IMG/VR virus record: IMGVR_UViG_3300037048_000031
Location: 1 to 58,011 of that record
DNA from: a virus
Taxonomy: Duplodnaviria; Caudoviricetes
Reading direction: 5' to 3' (one strand)
Length of the DNA: 58,011 nt
Positions 36,633-43,866 of this stretch are shown in pieces. The number at the start of each line of letters is the position of its first letter. Position 1 is the first letter of the stretch. The translations under genes were made by a program, and so were the position numbers. Under the pieces are notes generated by a model, which saw only the letters and a list, made by a program, of their open reading frames with translations, made no database searches and was not told the DNA's origin.

Positions 36633-38870
36633 TTACAGCTTGTTATCGCTTTTGGTTCCCCGATCTACGAAACCGGGATCATTGGTTAATTTGCTGACTA
36701 TATCCGCACCTGTCTTGACGTCTTCCCTTTTGTGGCTCTTGATATCGCTCTCCATCTTCGAAACAGACTCGGCCCTCTTAATCCTCATTTGCTGTTCGTC
36801 AAAATCAACACCGGCGAGCGCGACCTCCTGTTTTACGGCTTCTGTTTGGATCTGTGCCGTCGTGAGGGCTGCTTCTGCTTCGAGCTTTTTAACCTCGGCC
36901 CGCGCCTTGGTTGTTTCAACGTCTTCGGGTTTTTCCTGTGGTTCGCCCTGCATTTTCTCCTGCATGAATTCGGTCATAAACTGTTCGAATGATGGGAACT
37001 GGCCTTTTTCGATAGCTGCCTGCAGCTTCTTAGGATCTATCTCGATGATATTCTTGATATATTCCATGATGTGAGGCGGTATTCCGGCTTGTTCCATCTG
37101 GTTTATAACGCTCCCAAGAGGACCGGCGTTCATTCTTTTGAGGACTTCCGCCCTATTGCCCCAATCCAGCTTTTCAAGAAGTTCCTGCCGGTCAATGGCA
37201 TTTCCCTTAAATAGCTCGAGGGCTTCTTCGCGCTGCTGCACTCTCGAAATAGGTAGGGTTGATCCGGAAACAACCGTAAGTTTCGCCGGTGTTATCAGTC
37301 TGGTTCCGACTATTGACTTGGATGTTTGCTCTCCGTCCTTCTCGGCATAAGATATCCAGCGCTCTTCCGTATAAAAGTTATGGAGATGGGATATATACAT
37401 CCGGCCTCTTTCCCTGATAAGCCTCCCGTATGACCGGATTTTCCCTCTCATTGTTGTTGCTGCTCGTTCAAGAAGGGCCGCGATCGCTTTATAAGCTATG
37501 ACGTTGTTTCCCACCTGGGCCTGGTCCAGATCGAACGTGCCTGCTATCAGGAAGAATAGATCCTTGAATAAGGTTATTGATTTCTCGATATCAATACTCG
37601 ATGGAGGCAATTCCAGATATCTGATCCCGGCGCCGGTCTCCGCTGTTGTCGGTCTGATTATGCCCGGATAATTAGTGAATTCGTTATTCTCAACTCCCGA
37701 ATTCTTCGGATTTATTATCTTTCTCCTGGCCGACTTATCCTTTTCCAGCACCATTTGAGACAGGCTTTTATTGAGCTCCATATTCAGGGCTTCGAGCTGT
37801 TCAAGGTCGCTTATTCCCCAGGCGCTCGCCGTATCCTTTACCGAGTTGGCGCCGTAAAACGGAAACTTATCATAAAGATATGTCTGCCTGGCTTCATCCT
37901 CGCCTATGGATGAATTTATGTTCGGGTTATCCTTGTCTTCCAGGACGACGCCGCCAGAACAAGCGAGGACATATCGAATCCCACCGGTATATTTCATTTT
38001 TTCAATCAGGTATTCGTTTCCTATTCCGTCGGTCTGGGTTTTGTCGTCCTTTACCATGGTGTTATCCCTTACCCACATTTCACACACGACGGTTTCCTCG
38101 TCGTCAAGAGACTCGCCCCCTGATATAAAGTTCGAGATACTTTTTACGATAGTCTGTATAGTGACAAGCATGTTATTCGTTTTCTTGTCGCCCTGGGCGT
38201 TGATATCCCGCCTGTCGTCGTTGAGATCCTTTAAAACTTCCTTGTCGGGTTTTATCTTATTGGCCAGCTTGGGGTATTTCGCCCGCATCCTTCGAACGCT
38301 TTTAGGATAAAAGTGGACTACGGCCTCGCTCGATTGTAACTCGCTGATATCTTTCAGGGCTACCGGATACCAACCAAAATAGAACGGATCGACTATAACG
38401 GTTTGAGCATCCCCCAGGCCCCCTTCAAGATCCTCGTTAAAGACAACCTTCTCAATACATACGCCGTATGTCTCACCATTTAGAACCGAGCTTTCGAGTT
38501 TATCCTGCTGTTCCTGGTCCAGCCACCAATGTTCGGCGGATCGCTGCAGATCGAGGCAAACATCCTTCTGGTCCTCTTCGACTTTACCAACCGAGGCCAC
38601 GTTAAAGGTCGGGTTGTTATCGGTGAGGGTGTTCGTTGTCCTTTGGATATGCGTAAAGGTTATATTGGCGCTCACCAGGGGAAGGCTCGCCGACGTTTTA
38701 GTTTTCCAATGTTTATTCCGACGTAACTTATAATTCCTGTTCCATTTCTCATGGAGGCCGAGACGCACCTTGTCGTTAAGGATCACCGCAAGGAGTTGGA
38801 AAACCTTTTTGCCGACGTTCTTATCCCCTTCGGGCGGCAAGAGTTCATAGCTTTGATTCTTATCAGGCAT
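36633..38870 (-). CDS. Portal protein
   Basis: 745 aa between TerL and the scaffold; VDPFYF, WGISDLEQL; helical C-terminal barrel. Confidence 0.88.
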   Translation of the reverse strand: MPDKNQSYELLPPEGDKNVGKKVFQLLAVILNDKVRLGLHEKWNRNYKLRRNKHWKTKTSASLPLVSANITFTHIQRTTNTLTDNNPTFNVASVGKVEEDQKDVCLDLQRSAEHWWLDQEQQDKLESSVLNGETYGVCIEKVVFNEDLEGGLGDAQTVIVDPFYFGWYPVALKDISELQSSEAVVHFYPKSVRRMRAKYPKLANKIKPDKEVLKDLNDDRRDINAQGDKKTNNMLVTIQTIVKSISNFISGGESLDDEETVVCEMWVRDNTMVKDDKTQTDGIGNEYLIEKMKYTGGIRYVLACSGGVVLEDKDNPNINSSIGEDEARQTYLYDKFPFYGANSVKDTASAWGISDLEQLEALNMELNKSLSQMVLEKDKSARRKIINPKNSGVENNEFTNYPGIIRPTTAETGAGIRYLELPPSSIDIEKSITLFKDLFFLIAGTFDLDQAQVGNNVIAYKAIAALLERAATTMRGKIRSYGRLIRERGRMYISHLHNFYTEERWISYAEKDGEQTSKSIVGTRLITPAKLTVVSGSTLPISRVQQREEALELFKGNAIDRQELLEKLDWGNRAEVLKRMNAGPLGSVINQMEQAGIPPHIMEYIKNIIEIDPKKLQAAIEKGQFPSFEQFMTEFMQEKMQGEPQEKPEDVETTKARAEVKKLEAEAALTTAQIQTEAVKQEVALAGVDFDEQQMRIKRAESVSKMESDIKSHKREDVKTGADIVSKLTNDPGFVDRGTKSDNKL

Positions 38871-39358
38871 TATTCTTTATCCTTATGTGAATTCCTATGA
38901 GACAAATACCCTCGCTGCTGGAAACTTCTCCCGCAAACGTCACATTTGATCAGATCTTGGGCGTTTGGTTTCTTTTCGGGCGCCTTGTTTTCGTTCAGTT
39001 CGGCCCGCACAATCGATGCAGCCTGTTCGTCTGTCGGCACAATCGTCCTGTCAATAACTGATTCGCGGTCGATTTCTGGTCTTTTGTCAACAAATTCGCC
39101 GGGTACGCCATTTTTTGACACTCTGTAAGGCCCTGTAGTTGTCGATATTACCTCTTGGCTTATGAATGGTCGATGCGTTCTGCCGTGTGGACACCTGAAA
39201 TCCTCCCATGAGAGGATAGGGTCGAACGGGACCGGAATCCCGTGTTCCGGGTCGGGCGATTGGAACATAGCGCCTGTCATTGGAAACGAGAGGGCTTCCT
39301 CGGTTGTTTTAGAGATAATCTCGTCGCATAGTTCGCATTTGACTATTAGTTCACTCAT
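38870..39358 (-). CDS. Hypothetical zinc-finger protein
   Basis: CELC...CPHG..H and a C-terminal C2H2 motif CDVC...H...H. Confidence 0.65.
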   Translation of the reverse strand: MSELIVKCELCDEIISKTTEEALSFPMTGAMFQSPDPEHGIPVPFDPILSWEDFRCPHGRTHRPFISQEVISTTTGPYRVSKNGVPGEFVDKRPEIDRESVIDRTIVPTDEQAASIVRAELNENKAPEKKPNAQDLIKCDVCGRSFQQRGYLSHRNSHKDKE

Positions 39359-39582
39359 TTTGTAGCCTCAACGGTTTGAATGATTTCTTCTTCCCCGCCA
39401 TACATGGCATCATAATACAAATCCTGATCGGCTTCCGCAGGTTTCTCCGGAAAGACTCTCGGTAACGCGGGGCCGCGCGCTTTATCCTGGGTGATCCTTC
39501 CAAGATAAAAACCGAGACATACGCAAGCGATATTAAGTAAGGCCAGGGCAAAATACATTTTATTAATATCCATCGACATCAC
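39355..39582 (-). CDS. Small membrane protein
   Basis: One transmembrane segment; overlaps both neighbours. Confidence 0.5.
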   Translation of the reverse strand: MMSMDINKMYFALALLNIACVCLGFYLGRITQDKARGPALPRVFPEKPAEADQDLYYDAMYGGEEEIIQTVEATK

Positions 39583-42500
39583 TATACGTCGTTCCGACGT
39601 CCTCTTTATTTGCTTCGTGCATCCAAAACTGTTCGTCTATTATTTTTTCAGCTATTGCTTCCGCCGCGTATCCTTCCCGAATCGGTTTCTCGATCATGGC
39701 TATATGGGCCTGGGCGGATGTCATCATCTTTTCAGGAATTCTCAATTTGAGAGGTCTCGCCATAACTACGTGACACGATTCATCATAAATGTGGTCTTCT
39801 TGATCGGTATTAGCTGACAATATCCCATTAGCATAAAAGAGGTGCGCCTGCTCAACCGTCAGATAATAGACCGGCTTCTTTTCTGAGAACCCAACCACAC
39901 TTATAACTGCAAGTTCTGACTTCTTTGGTGCTATGTTTTTTTGCCCTGAATGATTTTCCGCATACCGGGCATTGTTTGTTTGTCCCTGAGTGGGCTTCTT
40001 GGCATGTTCCGGAACAGTGTTCTTTTGTTGGATGCCGGGTTGTAAAAGATTTGCCACAATTAGCGCACGCAAGTTCTCGAATGGGAGAGTTTGCGCGGCA
40101 CTTCTCAATGTTGCCCCGAAGAATCCTTTTCCCCACCCTGCTATTTCTCCAATTTTTAAGAGACTTGTTGAGATCCCCACCGGCTCCAATTCTTTCTTTG
40201 TGGTGTTGTCTCGCATGGCTTCCCGCAAAAACGAGTTCCAGATTTTCAATGCTGTTGTTGCTGGCATCGTGGTCTTTGTGGTGGATATGGCATCCTTCTG
40301 GAATGACTCCGTTAATAGTAATCCAAACTGCTCGGTGGAGTAATGTTGTCCCAAATGTATCGGAATGGCTTGGATGACATTCGAAATATCTTCTACCGTC
40401 ACGCTTCGTAAACTTGATTCCTCCGAAAACAATTTGTTGATTTGGCATAAGGCGTCTCCTTCCTGTAAAAGTGTTTGGCCTGATGATACCAGACACAGAG
40501 GAAGAAGTCCACAATTATTTACAAATATTTTATGGTCTTGGGTTGCTTCGAGGGTTGCCCCGTTCGACATGGTTATTTTGATGGTTTCGTCCTGTCCTGC
40601 CAGGCCAGCTTTTAATATTTTTCTCGGCCCTATAGGGGTATTAACAAAATCGCCCGCCCTTAGTTGTTCGATTGCAGCCAATCCGGTTGGAGTCGATATG
40701 AGCGTTCCGGCAACAAAACAATCGATATCCTCCATATTGTCCTCGTCCATGGAAAGCGCCGGTATTAAATCAATAAAGTGCCTGCAAGTTCTATAAACTT
40801 GGAGCATGGGCCTGTCGATCTGCTTTCCGCTTTCATCCCTCGGAACATACATGCGCTCTCTAAACTGCTGTATTTTCTGAGTCCGCGCCGGATCGCCCCT
40901 TGTTAGGAAGATTCTTTTTTCCGCAAAAGTTTCAGCGGTGCTCGGTCCCTGGCCTCCGCCCTTATAATCCGGTTTCTTGGACCAGCAATCAGGGCCAGCC
41001 AAGCGGATTAGCTTGTCATTTCCCCATATTCCCGCGTCTTTTTCGCGCTTTATGATCCCGTCGGCCACTTCTGAATCTGTTAAACGCAAGCCTTCGTCCG
41101 GCGTTCCAGTTGATCCGTACCATTCGAGAAAACGATATACGCGCCCCTCGCCATCTACCCACCACCAACCTATTGAAAACGGTTTTCCGTATCCCCAATC
41201 GAAGGTCATATACATATACGCATGTTTCTCTATGGGGATCGGATCGATGATATGCGCCTCTGTTAAGAGGAATGCCTGCCCGATGTATGTATCCCAGTCT
41301 CCGGCCAGCCAAGCGGCTCGTAAAGCGGGGTCTTTGATCGATTTGAGCTTGTTTACATAGGACGGATCTGACTCGCATAGGATTTTGTTGTCGTCGAGGA
41401 AGGAAGGGATGTAAATCTTGGTTTGCCCATCGGCGTCCGTGATAACGGATTCCGGTTTAACCCCGAATGAGGCGCCGAGCTGGAAATAGTTTTTAACTTG
41501 GTTGTGTCCTGGGCCTCCCGGGTTTCCAGTTCCGAACATCCTGCAGGGTACTCCATGGGCGGATCTGTTCGAGCCTTTCAGCTTATCAACCATGGAATAG
41601 AAAAATGGGAAGGTCGTAACCTCGTCAATTCCAATTTCGGTGTATTGTTGCCCTACATGATCATCAACCATCTTTAGGGTTGAAATTGCAGGCATAATCA
41701 CCTGGGCTCCGTTCTTAAACCTCACGTAATTGGTCTGCTGATCACCGCCGATTCTTATAGCAGGGAGCCCATCTGCTACCATGCCGTCAATCCGGCGTCT
41801 CATTTCCGCGAATTCTTTATATTTCCTGCGGACTATGATCCCGTTCCAATTCGGTCCCCATTTTTCCGCACCGCGCAGCTGCCGGCCCCACAAACAATCT
41901 GAATTATGGGTTGGTATCATAGATTTGCCACACAAATACATGCGCGATGGTGAGTCAACTTGAATACATTTGAGCGGTACTCGCTCTATTGGTTTTACTG
42001 AAAGAATATATCTCTTCTCATGGGTCCCACGGAAACCACCGCGTTTTTGTCGAATCAATTTTCTTGGTAGCCTGAACGCAGGCAGGTCTGTCATAAACTT
42101 AAGACGATACTTTAACCCGCAATCCTTCCCATGTATTTTTGCCGTTCCAGTTCTCATCTGGCATTTAATACCGAGCGAACTTATTAGCTCAAAAACTCCG
42201 TCAATCAAGGACTTTCTTGTTAATTGTATTTCACATTGGCCGCGCAAGTCGCAATGGCCATCCGTATCCATAAGCCCCTGCAAAAGAGACAGCCTTTGCT
42301 CTTTGCTTGCTCTAAGATAAGATATTGGAATGTGTTTATTTTTTAGAACTCCGAGCGTTCGCAACTGCGTTATCAAACCCAATACGCATCTTGATTTAGG
42401 ATCACTGTGCTGCGACACAGAATATCCACCATTAACTATCTGAACAAAAATATCCTCATCAATACCTGTTACACAGCCACTTGCAGCAGTACCATCACCA

Positions 42501-43126
42501 AGCCATACACCAAAAACATAAGGGTCTATCGGCAACGTTTGTTCCGGTAATTCAAGAGCCTTTGAAACCTGAATAGAATGATTGATTTCTTTTCTGTGTT
42601 TGGCAATATCTCTTACGTAAAGAGTGTCCAATATTTCTTTAGTGGTTTTAATGCTGCTGGTCGGAATATTTTTTACTTTGGTAGGATTTAATTTATTGCG
42701 TGCAACAAGGCTTTTGGTAAACGCCTCGCTTTTGGTTCCCTTAACGTTGCTTTTTCTATTCACCCTTCGAGTTGCTCTCCACTCAGGAGTTTCGCGAAGC
42801 CGCCGCGCCCTTTCCTTGTAATTTGATGTTACCCATTGATGTCTGGCGCCTGCAATAATTTCCGATCCGTCGGAGAATATCATTTTATAGGTGTCCTCAA
42901 ACTGAACAGGGGAAACGCCAACAACACGACACGGCAAACCTTCACCCGATAACACCTCGTCTCCAATCTGAAGATCCGCCATCGTTTCCCACCCATATGG
43001 TGTGGGTATTGGAGTATCAATACTTAGGAGTTTCCCGCCGCCCCGAGACCCACCGAACAGCGTAAAATCAGCCGGGCATATCGCCGCTCTCGCTTGTGGG
43101 CCTGGTTGTGGAGACCAGAAAGACAT
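39563..43126 (-). CDS. terL: Terminase large subunit with two inteins
   Basis: GGSRGGGK|S Walker A, IGIDE Walker B, GNPGGPGH, FDWG and EDHIYDE nuclease motifs. Confidence 0.95.
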   Translation of the reverse strand: MSFWSPQPGPQARAAICPADFTLFGGSRGGGKLLSIDTPIPTPYGWETMADLQIGDEVLSGEGLPCRVVGVSPVQFEDTYKMIFSDGSEIIAGARHQWVTSNYKERARRLRETPEWRATRRVNRKSNVKGTKSEAFTKSLVARNKLNPTKVKNIPTSSIKTTKEILDTLYVRDIAKHRKEINHSIQVSKALELPEQTLPIDPYVFGVWLGDGTAASGCVTGIDEDIFVQIVNGGYSVSQHSDPKSRCVLGLITQLRTLGVLKNKHIPISYLRASKEQRLSLLQGLMDTDGHCDLRGQCEIQLTRKSLIDGVFELISSLGIKCQMRTGTAKIHGKDCGLKYRLKFMTDLPAFRLPRKLIRQKRGGFRGTHEKRYILSVKPIERVPLKCIQVDSPSRMYLCGKSMIPTHNSDCLWGRQLRGAEKWGPNWNGIIVRRKYKEFAEMRRRIDGMVADGLPAIRIGGDQQTNYVRFKNGAQVIMPAISTLKMVDDHVGQQYTEIGIDEVTTFPFFYSMVDKLKGSNRSAHGVPCRMFGTGNPGGPGHNQVKNYFQLGASFGVKPESVITDADGQTKIYIPSFLDDNKILCESDPSYVNKLKSIKDPALRAAWLAGDWDTYIGQAFLLTEAHIIDPIPIEKHAYMYMTFDWGYGKPFSIGWWWVDGEGRVYRFLEWYGSTGTPDEGLRLTDSEVADGIIKREKDAGIWGNDKLIRLAGPDCWSKKPDYKGGGQGPSTAETFAEKRIFLTRGDPARTQKIQQFRERMYVPRDESGKQIDRPMLQVYRTCRHFIDLIPALSMDEDNMEDIDCFVAGTLISTPTGLAAIEQLRAGDFVNTPIGPRKILKAGLAGQDETIKITMSNGATLEATQDHKIFVNNCGLLPLCLVSSGQTLLQEGDALCQINKLFSEESSLRSVTVEDISNVIQAIPIHLGQHYSTEQFGLLLTESFQKDAISTTKTTMPATTALKIWNSFLREAMRDNTTKKELEPVGISTSLLKIGEIAGWGKGFFGATLRSAAQTLPFENLRALIVANLLQPGIQQKNTVPEHAKKPTQGQTNNARYAENHSGQKNIAPKKSELAVISVVGFSEKKPVYYLTVEQAHLFYANGILSANTDQEDHIYDESCHVVMARPLKLRIPEKMMTSAQAHIAMIEKPIREGYAAEAIAEKIIDEQFWMHEANKEDVGTTYSDVDGY
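39809..40720 (-). mobile_element. Intein 2 (304 aa) in the TerL nuclease domain; no in-frame endonuclease
   Basis: DID|CFVAGTLIST, TQDHKIF (block B), VYYLTVEQAHLFYANGILSAN|T. Confidence 0.92.
39852..40448 (-). CDS. HNH endonuclease with Cys-rich zinc-binding repeats, encoded in an alternate frame inside intein 2
   Basis: AGGAG-acgcctt-ATG start; LHRAVW...IPEGCHIHHKDHDASNNSIENL...H; CANC...CSGTC and CPVC...CSYKC. Confidence 0.9.
   Translation of the reverse strand: MPNQQIVFGGIKFTKRDGRRYFECHPSHSDTFGTTLLHRAVWITINGVIPEGCHIHHKDHDASNNSIENLELVFAGSHARQHHKERIGAGGDLNKSLKNWRNSRVGKRILRGNIEKCRANSPIRELACANCGKSFTTRHPTKEHCSGTCQEAHSGTNKQCPVCGKSFRAKKHSTKEVRTCSYKCGWVLRKEAGLLSDG
41903..43030 (-). mobile_element. 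Intein 1 (376 aa), class 3 type, with LAGLIDADG endonuclease, inserted in the Walker A motif
   Basis: GGGK|LLSIDTPIPTP, HQW, VWLGDG, GLMDTDG, LKCIQVD, THN|S. Confidence 0.93.
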
Positions 43127-43866
43127 TATTTACCGTCCTTTTTCATTTTCTTAACGAGATCTTCGTATTCCTCCATAGTGCTTGGCTCCGGGGGAAAGTA
43201 TGTCATTTTGTGCGTAACCTCGACCTTTTGAGGATCATCGGCACCTGGCTTTACCCGATCCAGAATACCCTTAAGCGCTGAAACCTTATCATGCAGCTTG
43301 AAGGATATTGTTGATGTGGTGAATTCGTCTCCGTTTTTACCCTGGGTTGTCCTACATACCTCTTTAACCTCGGAAACAGCGCTGACCTGTTCCTCTGTTA
43401 ATTCCCCGGAATCTTTAAGGGTAACATACCCTGGCCCCCATTTAGCAAAATCACTCATTCTTGAAAAGCCAACATGTGCCAGCTCCTTAATCACCTCGTC
43501 CTGGTTTATGCGTAACCTCTTGGATATTTCGACTTTTCCGGCATTGACGGCTGCCGTGATGTCTGGTCTTGTCAATAAAGCGCTTGCTTGTTTACGCGCG
43601 TTCGCTTCTTTGTATCCCGCGCGTGTTGCGGCTTTTTGCCCGTTTAAATCAATCAAATATTCATCAACAAATCGAGCGTGTTGCGGCTTTAGTGTCTTTA
43701 AAAGGTCGTCATAGGTGGAGATTGGTGGGGTGTTTTGCGGGTTTTTGGGAACATTTTCGGCGCTTTCAGGAACACCCGGGGCCTTTTCTGGAACTTCCTG
43801 GCTACATTTCCGGCTCTGTCCCTGCTTTCCGCTTTTTCTTTTCGGTTTTTTCGGTAATGGTTTCAG
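43126..43866 (-). CDS. terS: Terminase small subunit (start uncertain; frame is open upstream of 43656, with a candidate CTG at 43866)
   Basis: LKPQHARFVDEYLIDLNGQKAATRAGY...A..LL and KLHDKVSAL motifs. Confidence 0.85.
   Translation of the reverse strand: MKPLPKKPKRKSGKQGQSRKCSQEVPEKAPGVPESAENVPKNPQNTPPISTYDDLLKTLKPQHARFVDEYLIDLNGQKAATRAGYKEANARKQASALLTRPDITAAVNAGKVEISKRLRINQDEVIKELAHVGFSRMSDFAKWGPGYVTLKDSGELTEEQVSAVSEVKEVCRTTQGKNGDEFTTSTISFKLHDKVSALKGILDRVKPGADDPQKVEVTHKMTYFPPEPSTMEEYEDLVKKMKKDGK

What the first reader, a model, noticed from the sequence alone, without database searches (positions are those of the whole stretch)
39809..40720. Intein whose homing endonuclease is a separate gene in another reading frame
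Seen: intein 2 has intact splicing blocks, but its ~200-aa middle has no recognisable domain. The same DNA read in the -1 frame (40448-39852) encodes a complete HNH nuclease with two Cys4-type repeats, its own AGGAG SD 7 nt before the ATG, and a stop within block F. Both frames stay open for about 600 nt. Established: intein endonucleases are normally in-frame domains. Inference: a free-standing HNH gene invaded a mini-intein in a stop-free frame, giving a composite element whose nuclease is expressed independently of splicing and is invisible to standard annotation.
Basis: partly seen in the sequence, partly recalled or inferred. Interest (0 to 1): 0.88.

Follow-up and report, generated by a model that had tools for sequence, protein, structure and literature searches.

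The report
Intein hiding an out-of-frame HNH nuclease gene
The second intein in this phage's terminase gene carries a complete HNH nuclease gene in a shifted reading frame; the layout is real and shared by many other phages, but this kind of element has been described before.

Summary
Intein 2 of terL (39809-40720, minus strand) is a complete mini-intein. Its roughly 177-residue middle has no confident fold. The same DNA read in the terL+2 (-1) frame (40448-39852) encodes a 198-aa HNH_3 nuclease with two Cys4 ribbons, an ATG start and an AGGAG 7 nt upstream.

It is not an assembly error. An independent metagenome carries the same letters. The same layout occurs in 82 of 95 related loci: 75 in the window's frame offset, 7 in the other offset and none in frame.

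Substitution patterns and dN/dS show purifying selection on the HNH frame (dN/dS 0.08-0.27). The terL-frame linker is only kept free of stops: 0 stops in 82 of 82 overlapped loci, against 2-14 in 18 split or free-standing relatives.

One pair of relatives has a 98.5% identical intein in 84% identical flanks, which indicates recent transfer.

What my searches did not find in print is this nuclease family, its wide spread and its stability. Expression, splicing and cleavage remain untested.

The parts
39563..43126 (-). terL (large terminase subunit) gene, 1187 aa precursor with two inteins. The extein family is Terminase_6N-type.
   Evidence: ORF list. Pfam Hint_2, Hom_end and Intein_splicing hits. 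An intein-free relative, L104, matches Terminase_6N at E=7.7e-7.
39809..40720 (-). Intein 2, 304 aa in the terL frame. It has Cys1, TQDH (block B), a terminal Asn and Thr at +1. It sits between ...MEDID and TDQEDHIYDE...
   Evidence: Translation and coordinates. C1, T60, H63 and N304 are conserved in 10 relatives. The intein-less allele L104 reads EDVD|TDMEDHVYDE uninterrupted.
40451..40720 (-). N-terminal HINT half (intein residues 1-90)
   Evidence: AlphaFold2 block pLDDT is 69-90. Together with the C half it aligns to the gp41-1 mini-intein 6riz_A at Z 20.9, rmsd 1.5 A, 124 residues.
39920..40450 (-). terL-frame read-through linker (intein residues 91-267). It has no fold and no residue-level conservation, and is only kept free of stop codons.
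   Evidence: pLDDT below 50 for 91-140 and 143-267. Pairwise identity in the host frame is 0.186, against 0.175 in the non-coding third frame and 0.334 in the HNH frame. There are 0 stops here and in 82 of 82 overlapped relatives.
39809..39919 (-). C-terminal HINT half (intein residues 268-304, blocks F and G). Its first ~22 codons (39852-39919) are also read in the HNH frame, so this stretch is truly dual-coding.
   Evidence: pLDDT about 80-86. In this stretch the terL-frame strand (consensus PVxISAVG; window AVISVVG) and the HNH-frame motif TCSYKCGW share the same bases.
39852..40448 (-). HNH endonuclease gene in the terL+2 (-1) frame: 198 aa plus stop, ATG start.
   Evidence: Translation. 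HNH_3 at E=1.9e-13. phrog_15471 at E=1.3e-19 over its full length. AlphaFold2 mean pLDDT 87.2. Best solved match is I-HmuI 1u3e at Z 7.7, rmsd 2.6 A, 76 residues, with profile E=0.003.
40456..40460 (-). Shine-Dalgarno-like AGGAG, 7 nt before the HNH ATG. It lies in the codons for the ...QEGD... end of the N-terminal HINT half.
   Evidence: Sequence. A 5-mer SD core lies within -18..-4 of the start in 30 of 80 overlapped loci, against 6.8% of control positions.
40203..40292 (-). HNH catalytic core (HNH residues 53-82: CHIHHKD...N...HARQHH).
   Evidence: H56, H57, N69, H78 and H82 are invariant in 10 of 10 aligned relatives.
40002..40067 (-). First Cys4 zinc-ribbon repeat (C128, C131, C145, C149).
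   Evidence: All four Cys are invariant. The model shows beta hairpins at 124-137.
39897..39971 (-). Second Cys4 zinc-ribbon repeat (C160, C163, C180, C184).
   Evidence: All four Cys are invariant. There are weak structural matches to the YacG zinc finger.

Best explanation
Intein 2 is a composite mobile element. A contiguous mini-intein (two HINT halves) splices itself out of the terminase. A separate gene for an I-HmuI-like HNH_3 nuclease with two zinc ribbons lies at the usual endonuclease-insertion point, in the terL+2 frame.

Ribosomes reading terL pass through the nuclease gene in the other frame. They make a roughly 177-residue structureless linker that leaves with the intein when it splices. 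The nuclease is made separately by internal initiation at its own SD-ATG on the terL message.

The nuclease most likely cuts or nicks intein-less terL alleles near ...EDxD|TDxEDH... during co-infection, so that repair copies the whole element in (homing).

Shown here: the two-frame anatomy, its wide conservation, purifying selection on the nuclease frame, stop-avoidance only in the host frame, a HINT fold for the two halves, and recent transfer in relatives. Inferred: translation start, splicing, target site and homing.
For: Anatomy and domain matches.

Not an artefact: run X5, from a different study, has four contig pieces covering 39500-40562 and 40632-40821 with 0 differences and 0 gaps. 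Runs X1 and X3, which may be the source of this record, are identical.

Conservation:
- 4 of 5 isolate phages with a hit inside terL have both frames open at the same offset.
- 9 of 9 close IMG/VR loci do as well.
- Across all 95 loci (window, 14 and 80 more): 75 overlapped in the window's offset, 7 overlapped in the other offset, 7 with a split host gene, 6 free-standing and 0 in frame.
- The architecture is constant in 14 loci. The HNH start lies 251-278 nt after intein codon 1, and the stop 1-82 nt before the intein end.

Selection:
- In the flanks, differences peak at terL codon position 3. In the overlap they peak at terL position 2, which is HNH position 3. For L010/L011 the rates at positions 1, 2 and 3 are .168/.463/.221, against .199/.094/.500 upstream. 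For window/L006 they are .228/.391/.315 against .330/.254/.568.
- dN/dS in the HNH frame is 0.27, 0.08, 0.18 and 0.09 in the 4 pairs where dS was defined. In the host frame it is 0.80-1.51 in five class-A pairs and 2.09 in the class-B pair.
- Host-frame stops number 0 in 82 of 82 overlapped loci, against 2-14 in 18 split or free relatives.
- P(0 stops) for the window is 0.0004.

Folds: HNH frame pLDDT 87.2; linker below 50. The HINT halves match the gp41-1 intein at Z 20.9. The HNH matches the I-HmuI homing endonuclease at Z 7.7.

Start: 67 ATG, 11 GTG and 2 TTG in 80 loci. The last upstream stop in the HNH frame lies a median of 6.5 codons before the start.

Mobility: the L013/L014 intein is 98.5% identical while the 600 nt of upstream extein is 84.2% identical, with the jump at the intein borders. 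Intein-less alleles exist in the window's own terL family, L101-L104.
Against: - There is no direct evidence that the HNH is translated. The only RNA data are three 151-nt contigs from one metatranscriptome library, which may contain DNA.
- An SD core is present in only 30 of 80 loci.
- The homing signature comes from relatives, not from the window. Between window and L006 the intein is only slightly more similar than the extein (about 31% against 38% differing sites, from the rates).
- Free-standing relatives sit directly beside terS or terL. That would also fit a role in packaging rather than homing.
- The penultimate intein residue is Ala rather than the usual His, so splicing efficiency is unknown.
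- dS was saturated in 2 of 6 pairs, and NG86 is not designed for overlapping genes.
Confidence: 0.8

Rival explanations
1. Relic. The HNH gene was functional in ancestors but is no longer expressed or active in this phage. The element is now inherited vertically as a splicing-only intein with a long linker.
For: No expression data exist. Window and L006 share the intein at the same site with similar divergence in intein and extein, which fits vertical descent. An SD is absent in many relatives.
Against: The ORF is intact, with every invariant catalytic and zinc-binding residue. dN/dS in the HNH frame is 0.27 since the split from L006. A dead ORF in this frame would be expected to gain stops, as the third frame shows with 11 stops.
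Confidence: 0.09
2. The nuclease is not a homing enzyme but a terminase helper. On this view it resembles the HNH proteins that some phages need for genome cutting during packaging (recalled from the literature, not checked here), and is kept inside terL for co-expression.
For: Free-standing relatives lie next to terS, terL or portal genes in 5 of 5 isolate records inspected: BP10, CL2, PAE1, EauM-23 and Shemara.
Against: Presence is sporadic within one terL family; L101-L104 lack the intein. A near-identical intein sits in diverged flanks in L013/L014, and also in the split pair L045/L047. The best solved relative is the homing endonuclease I-HmuI. Gene gaps next to conserved genes are also typical sites for free-standing homing genes (established knowledge).
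Confidence: 0.07
3. Programmed -1 ribosomal frameshifting from the terL frame produces an N-extein / N-HINT / HNH fusion protein, instead of independent initiation.
For: The HNH frame is the -1 frame of terL. One ENA protein, P0003 (428 aa), is such a fusion in a single ORF.
Against: The window has no in-frame X XXY YYZ heptamer between the last HNH-frame stop (40514) and the ATG. In 80 loci an HNH-frame stop lies a median of 6.5 codons (minimum 0) before a start codon, which is ATG in 67 of 80. Homology begins at the Met. The 7 class-B loci use the +1 frame instead.
Confidence: 0.03
4. Assembly artefact. Two compensating indel errors hide an ordinary in-frame HNH intein.
For: None was found. 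It was a reasonable prior for a metagenome contig.
Against: An independent run has identical letters with no gaps. The terL frame would be open over 597 nt only with P about 0.0004. The same layout occurs in 82 of 95 loci from many assemblies and four isolate genomes.
Confidence: 0.01

Closest known systems
Actinobacteriophage 'non-canonical' inteins with an endonuclease VII-like homing endonuclease in reading frame 3 (Gosselin, Arsenault, Gogarten, bioRxiv 10.1101/2025.01.02.630785; I read the abstract, sections 8 and 15, and passages)
   Same: The endonuclease ORF lies in the intein's endonuclease region on the same strand, in frame 3 (+2) relative to the intein. Many are in terL. The in-frame middle has no recognisable structure. 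The authors propose an origin by invasion of a free-standing gene.
   Different: Their nuclease is labelled endonuclease VII-like (InterPro IPR004211), matched to 1E7D over residues 1-67. Here it is Pfam HNH_3, I-HmuI-like, with two Cys4 ribbons. Their survey covers PhagesDB actinophages only and calls the layout rare. Here it is found in 82 loci from isolates of Proteobacteria, Firmicutes and one actinobacterium and from metagenomes. No PhagesDB-type phage appeared in the 60 listed rows of 455 tblastn records, but the other 395 rows and their supplementary tables were not seen.
Cyanobacterial dnaX intein with an out-of-frame (+2 ORF) LAGLIDADG endonuclease (Phillips, DeSimone, Gogarten, bioRxiv 10.64898/2026.09.14.751524; abstract and sections 14 and 17 read). 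That paper credits Gorbalenya 1998, which I did not read.
   Same: The endonuclease overlaps in a shifted frame. dN/dS is low in the endonuclease frame and high in the host frame over the overlap. Distribution is sporadic, and secondary invasion of a mini-intein is proposed.
   Different: The endonuclease family is LAGLIDADG, the host is a cellular dnaX gene, and it is confined to one phylum.
Fractured genes: split inteins with a free-standing homing endonuclease gene between the halves (Dassa et al. 2009, PMC2677866; passages read)
   Same: A free-standing endonuclease gene sits at the endonuclease-insertion point of an intein. Its 3' end overlaps the coding sequence for the C-terminal intein part. 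Seven relatives here (L005, L034, L040, L041, L045, L047, L090) have exactly this split layout.
   Different: In the window the host frame is not broken, so the intein is contiguous and cis-splicing. The nucleases in Dassa et al. are GIY-YIG and Vsr-like, not HNH.
ShiLan-type out-of-frame HNH insertion in phage DNA methylase (Arsenault et al. 2025, PMC11855218; abstract and section 4 read)
   Same: A hidden HNH gene lies in a shifted frame inside a host gene whose own frame stays open.
   Different: That element has no splicing domains, so the insert stays in the host protein. Here HINT halves flank the insert and should remove it.
I-HmuI, intron-encoded HNH homing (nicking) endonuclease of Bacillus phage SPO1, PDB 1U3E
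   Same: It is the best solved relative by profile (E=0.003), by Foldseek (probability 0.95) and by VIA-align (Z 7.7, rmsd 2.6 A, 76 residues; next hit Z 4.4).
   Different: The match covers only residues 6-87. The C-terminal half here is two zinc ribbons rather than I-HmuI's helical DNA-binding modules. I-HmuI is carried by an intron, not an intein.
[quoted passage not shown]
   Same: They combine a HINT domain with HNH_3. P0006 is in a terL at a comparable C-terminal site and has a Cys-rich tail.
   Different: The nuclease is fused in frame between the HINT halves. They are only distant relatives (E 3e-8 and 4e-7, 26-30% of the query covered).

Membership tests
Intein (HINT domain, class 1) | N-terminal Cys or Ser nucleophile | tested here: met
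   Cys1, invariant in 10 of 10 relatives.
Intein (HINT domain, class 1) | Block B Thr-x-x-His | tested here: met
   TQDH is present. H63 is invariant and T60 nearly invariant.
Intein (HINT domain, class 1) | C-terminal Asn followed by Cys, Ser or Thr | tested here: met
   ...SAN|T. N304 is invariant. The penultimate residue is Ala rather than His.
Intein (HINT domain, class 1) | HINT fold | tested here: met
   The model aligns with the gp41-1 intein 6riz_A at Z 20.9, rmsd 1.5 A, 124 of 127 residues, and 31 chains score Z of 8 or more. Pfam Hint_2 scores 32.2 against a cut-off of 28.4. Intein_splicing scores 27.6, below its cut-off of 35.8.
Intein (HINT domain, class 1) | In-frame insertion at a conserved host site, with intein-less alleles in existence | tested here: met
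   L104 reads EDVD|TDMEDHVYDE without an insert, and L101-L103 also lack it.
Intein (HINT domain, class 1) | Protein splicing activity | not testable with these tools
   It is inferred from terL being essential and from the host frame being kept open in 82 of 82 loci.
HNH (His-Me finger) endonuclease, HNH_3 / I-HmuI-like | Profile match above the curated threshold | tested here: met
   HNH_3 scores 50.3 bits against a cut-off of 24.8, E=1.9e-13. phrog_15471 matches at E=1.3e-19.
HNH (His-Me finger) endonuclease, HNH_3 / I-HmuI-like | Conserved catalytic His, Asn and metal-binding His | tested here: met
   H56, H57, N69, H78 and H82 are invariant in 10 of 10. Assigning them to catalytic roles is by analogy (recalled).
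HNH (His-Me finger) endonuclease, HNH_3 / I-HmuI-like | Beta-beta-alpha metal fold | tested here: met
   1u3e_M at Z 7.7, rmsd 2.6 A, 76 residues, well above the next hit at Z 4.4. Model pLDDT is 87.2.
Homing endonuclease (functional class) | Site-specific cleavage of the element-free allele, and copying of the element into it | not testable with these tools
   The evidence is indirect only: the L013/L014 intein is 98.5% identical while the flanks are 84.2% identical, and presence is sporadic.
[quoted passage not shown] | Endonuclease ORF inside the intein's endonuclease region, in a frame other than the intein's | tested here: met
   The offset is +2.
[quoted passage not shown] | Host frame stays open so that the intein is contiguous | tested here: met
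   There are 0 stops over 597 nt, with P(0)=0.0004.
[quoted passage not shown] | Selection acts on the endonuclease frame, not on the host-frame linker | tested here: met
Fractured gene / split intein with a free-standing endonuclease gene | Host gene broken into two ORFs around the endonuclease gene | tested here: not met
   The window's terL is one ORF. The feature is met in 7 of 95 related loci.
Canonical bifunctional intein (in-frame endonuclease domain) | Endonuclease domain in the same frame as the splicing domain | tested here: not met
   The HNH is only readable in the +2 frame. None of the 95 related loci is in frame.

The most novel reading that the evidence does not exclude
Out-of-frame encoding is not a rare, passing accident. 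It is the dominant and long-lived architecture of a large, phage-wide family of terL inteins.

The HNH_3/zinc-ribbon gene persists as an overlapping gene through deep divergence; mean pairwise identity of the HNH protein is 33%. It has moved from one shifted frame to the other without settling in frame. It also moves repeatedly between three states: overlapped in a contiguous intein, between split intein halves, and free-standing beside terminase genes.

This would imply selection against fusing this elongated nuclease into the HINT loop, or selection for expression uncoupled from terL. It would also mean that many 'mini-inteins with an unknown linker' in phage databases hide active homing genes.
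Probability: 0.55. Interest if true: 0.7.

Novelty: new member of a known kind. Interest (0 to 1): 0.55.

Why it matters
The finding shows that a whole family of homing nucleases is missed by ordinary annotation. Four of four isolate records with this layout list only terL.

One protein tree holds contiguous-overlapped, split and free-standing forms side by side. That is the set of intermediates long proposed for how inteins acquire nucleases and how split inteins arise.

The family is also a large natural example of an overlapping gene in which one frame is under ordinary protein-level selection and the other is constrained only to avoid stop codons.

In practice, intein surveys should scan linkers in all frames. 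The compact HINT halves, which tolerate a 177-residue unstructured insert, may be useful in protein engineering.

Tried and rejected
- RBS-sequestering hairpin. In the window the SD is predicted to pair with CUUCUUCCU about 30 nt upstream. The fold is no better than shuffles (z -0.81; 41 of 200 shuffles fold as well). Across 81 loci the unpaired probability of -16..+3 is 0.446, against 0.452 in 485 control windows (p=0.64). No family-wide signal, so dropped.
- Internal promoter. One sigma-70-like match (40511..40483, minus) lies just upstream of the HNH start, but the region has 4 matches against 7.3 expected. This is not evidence.
- Intron or other RNA element. There are 0 Rfam matches at E of 1 or below in 39300-43300. 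The open host frame also argues against an intron.
- Programmed frameshift. No slippery heptamer was found.
- Prokaryote genomes. The genome-contig scan with the HNH alignment matched 135 pattern stretches, none confirmed. No prophage copies were found at that sensitivity.
- DNA similarity of the whole terL to the 50,697 phage records: no match.
- Foldseek against the PDB gave no match at E of 0.001 or below. The top hit, 1u3e, had E=0.018. VIA-align was then used.
- Transcription. Run X6, a metatranscriptome, gave three 151-nt contigs (40176-40326, 40379-40529, 40758-40908). That is too little, and DNA carry-over is possible. The parts without cover say nothing.
- Tree. The careful search did not finish in the time allowed, so only the quick tree (SH-aLRT support) was used. 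Its deep branches are weak. I use it only for two points: that the 7 class-B sequences group together (support 91), and that split and free forms are scattered.
- Link to the published endonuclease VII-like class. I could not fetch the named actinophages or see the preprint's supplements, so whether the two classes are homologous is untested.
Full report
**What is there**

The window is a complete 58-kb IMG/VR virus record with terminal repeats. Its large terminase gene terL is on the minus strand at 39563..43126 and encodes a 1187-aa precursor. The precursor has two inteins: intein 1 at 41903..43030 and intein 2 at 39809..40720.

Intein 2 is 304 aa and has the expected splicing residues: Cys1, TQDH in block B, and a C-terminal Asn followed by Thr. 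In the terL frame, Pfam finds only HINT and intein-splicing matches at its two ends and nothing in the middle.

Reading the same DNA from the ATG at 40448 to the stop at 39852-39854 gives a 198-aa protein. It matches Pfam HNH_3 at E=1.9e-13 and phrog_15471 'HNH endonuclease' over its full length. AGGAG lies 7 nt before the ATG, and the stop falls in the block F codons.

**Chance and artefact**

If the HNH protein is re-coded with the window's own codon usage (taken from 25 ORFs of at least 200 aa), the terL frame gets a mean of 6.08 stops and is stop-free in 0.04% of 20,000 trials. The third frame has 11 stops.

Logan contigs of two groundwater runs, which may be the source of the record, are identical. 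A coal-metagenome run from another study covers 39500-40562 and 40632-40821 in four pieces with no differences and no gaps, including both ends of the HNH ORF. Compensating assembly frameshifts are therefore excluded.

**Related sequences**

A tblastn search with the HNH protein hit 42 phage records. Five hits lying under annotated terL genes were inspected. In 5 of 5 the hit is offset by 2 from the terL frame. In 4 of 5 (Tetrasphaera TJE1, Acinetobacter Highwayman, Clostridium phiCDHM19, Rhodobacteraceae LS06-2018-MD07) the annotated terL reads straight through, and no HNH gene is annotated. In the fifth, Vibrio phage 1.245.O, the terL frame stops and a separate 'hint domain protein' follows.

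Nine of 9 close IMG/VR relatives (33-66% HNH identity) have the same two-frame layout. A profile scan then found 189 confirmed relatives in IMG/VR, and the best 80 were fetched. I located the HINT halves with HMMs built from the first 14 loci and checked two outliers by eye. The 95 loci, window included, divide as follows:

| Layout | Loci |
|---|---|
| HNH in host frame +2, both frames open (as in the window; class A) | 75 |
| HNH in host frame +1, both frames open (class B) | 7 |
| HINT halves present but host frame broken (split) | 7 |
| Free-standing, no HINT found | 6 |
| In frame | 0 |

The architecture is constant in the 14 loci measured. The HNH start lies 251-278 nt after the first intein codon, and the stop 1-82 nt (mostly 43 or 55) before the intein end.

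Judged by eye from the flanks printed, there are at least three insertion points within about ten residues around a conserved ...DH..D... motif near the terL C-terminus. That suggests the element has moved between neighbouring sites and between terL families.

**Which frame is selected**

In three pairs of relatives, differences in the flanking terL sequence peak at terL codon position 3, as expected for a coding gene. In the overlap of the two informative pairs (L010/L011 and window/L006) they peak at terL position 2, which is HNH position 3; L013/L014 has only 11 differences there.

NG86 dN/dS over the overlap, for the pairs where dS was defined:

| Pair | HNH frame | Host frame |
|---|---|---|
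| Window / L006 | 0.27 | 0.80 |
| L010 / L011 | 0.08 | 1.21 |
| L048 / L073 | 0.18 | 0.98 |
| L060 / L063 (class B) | 0.09 | 2.09 |

In two further pairs dS in the HNH frame was saturated.

Over 73 class-A loci, aligned-codon identity is 0.334 in the HNH frame, 0.186 in the host frame and 0.175 in the non-coding third frame. The linker therefore has no conservation of its own.

H56, H57, N69, H78, H82 and all eight Cys are invariant in 10 aligned HNH proteins.

Host-frame stops number 0 in 75 of 75 class-A loci and 7 of 7 class-B loci. They number 2-14 in the 18 split or free-standing relatives, which serve as natural controls for the same protein family without the constraint.

At the 3' end about 22 codons are truly dual-coding. 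The HNH motif TCSYKCGW and the HINT strand (consensus PVxISAVG; window AVISVVG) share the same bases, and both are conserved.

**Structures**

The AlphaFold2 model of the HNH frame has mean pLDDT 87.2. Its best solved match is the HNH homing endonuclease I-HmuI (1u3e). The match has profile E=0.003 and Foldseek probability 0.95. VIA-align gives Z 7.7, rmsd 2.6 A over 76 residues, with the next hit at Z 4.4.

In the terL-frame intein model, block-mean pLDDT is 69-90 for residues 1-90 and roughly 80-86 for residues 268-304. It is below 50 for residues 91-140 and 143-267. With the low-confidence stretch trimmed, the two ends superpose on mini-inteins, for example gp41-1 at Z 20.9, rmsd 1.5 A, 124 of 127 residues.

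**Expression signals**

In the 80 overlapped loci first classified, the start is ATG in 67, GTG in 11 and TTG in 2. A stop in the HNH frame lies a median of 6.5 codons upstream of it. A 5-mer SD core lies within -18..-4 of the start in 30 of 80 loci, against 6.8% of control positions.

The window has no slippery heptamer. A predicted SD-sequestering hairpin is neither significant nor shared across the family. Independent internal initiation is therefore the best-supported route, but it remains an inference.

**Mobility**

L013 and L014 have inteins that are 98.5% identical over 957 nt, inside terL genes whose upstream 600 nt are 84.2% identical. Identity jumps at the intein borders. The split pair L045/L047 shows the same pattern, 99.7% against 88.2%.

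In the window's own terL family, L101-L104 lack both inteins, and L104 carries the uninterrupted site EDVD|TDMEDHVYDE. The closest relative, L006, has intein 2 but not intein 1.

Free-standing relatives of the HNH lie beside terS, terL or portal genes in five isolates.

On a quick tree the seven class-B sequences form one group nested among class A, and split and free forms are scattered. The careful tree search was not finished.

**Comparison with what is known**

The concept is in print.

[quoted passage not shown] These include an endonuclease VII-like gene in frame 3, many in terL, and the authors propose the same invasion model.
- A 2026 preprint shows frame-specific selection for an out-of-frame LAGLIDADG gene in the cyanobacterial dnaX intein. 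It credits the first notice to Gorbalenya 1998, which I did not read.
- Dassa et al. 2009 described the split version with other nuclease families.
- Arsenault et al. 2025 described a hidden HNH in a methylase gene with no intein.

My five literature searches found no report of this HNH_3/zinc-ribbon family in that role, of its spread beyond actinophages, or of the absence of in-frame members among close relatives.

In-frame HNH_3 inteins do exist as distant relatives, for example P0006 in a Terminase_6N terL and P0007 in a ribonucleotide reductase.

**Verdict**

It is a new member of a known but little-documented kind. The added value is the evidence that the layout is widespread, old and under selection. 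Expression, splicing and target cleavage remain to be shown.

Noticed in passing
window 41903..43030 (-): Intein 1 of the same terL sits in the P-loop (GGGK|LLSID...PTHN|SDC). It begins with Leu rather than a nucleophile, and has Trp in a block-B-like ARHQW, Cys in PLKCIQVD and Thr in PTHN. That resembles class 3 inteins (the WCT motif is recalled, not tested). It also has LAGLIDADG/Hom_end Pfam hits. It is absent from the closest relative L006 and from L101-L104.
   Followed up: partly
L005 (Vibrio phage 1.245.O) 248-3976; also L034, L040, L041, L045, L047, L090: In these relatives the terL frame is broken by 6-14 stops inside the HNH region, and the C-terminal HINT part restarts as its own ORF (for example MVRVKSVSFAG... 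in L090). That is a split intein with the HNH gene between the halves, the 'fractured gene' layout, here with an HNH nuclease.
   Followed up: partly
L043, L060, L063, L077, L088, L094, L095: A second overlapped class has the HNH in the host +1 frame instead of +2. There are 0 stops in the host frame and 10-19 in the other. On the quick tree they form a single group.
   Followed up: partly
L013 3060-4016 against L014 3603-4559; L045 against L047: The inteins are near-identical (98.5% and 99.7%) inside terL genes that are only 84-88% identical. This is a signature of recent transfer between phages.
   Followed up: yes
L096-L100 (phages BP10, CL2, PAE1, EauM-23, Shemara): Free-standing relatives of the HNH, annotated as HNH endonuclease, sit directly beside terS, terL or portal genes.
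   Followed up: partly
protein P0003 (one ENA contig): A 428-aa ORF joins the terL C-terminal part, the N-terminal HINT half and the HNH in a single frame, and ends after the zinc ribbon. It could be a one-indel variant, a broken gene or a sequencing error.
   Followed up: no
window 38870..39358 (-): A 162-aa ORF directly upstream of the portal gene (between it and the small ORFs downstream of terL) ends in a C2H2-like CDVCGRSFQQRGYLSHRNSH.
   Followed up: no
window 40483..40511 (-) and 40456..40505 (-): A sigma-70-like hexamer pair and a hairpin that would pair the HNH SD both lie just upstream of the HNH start. Neither exceeds chance.
   Followed up: yes
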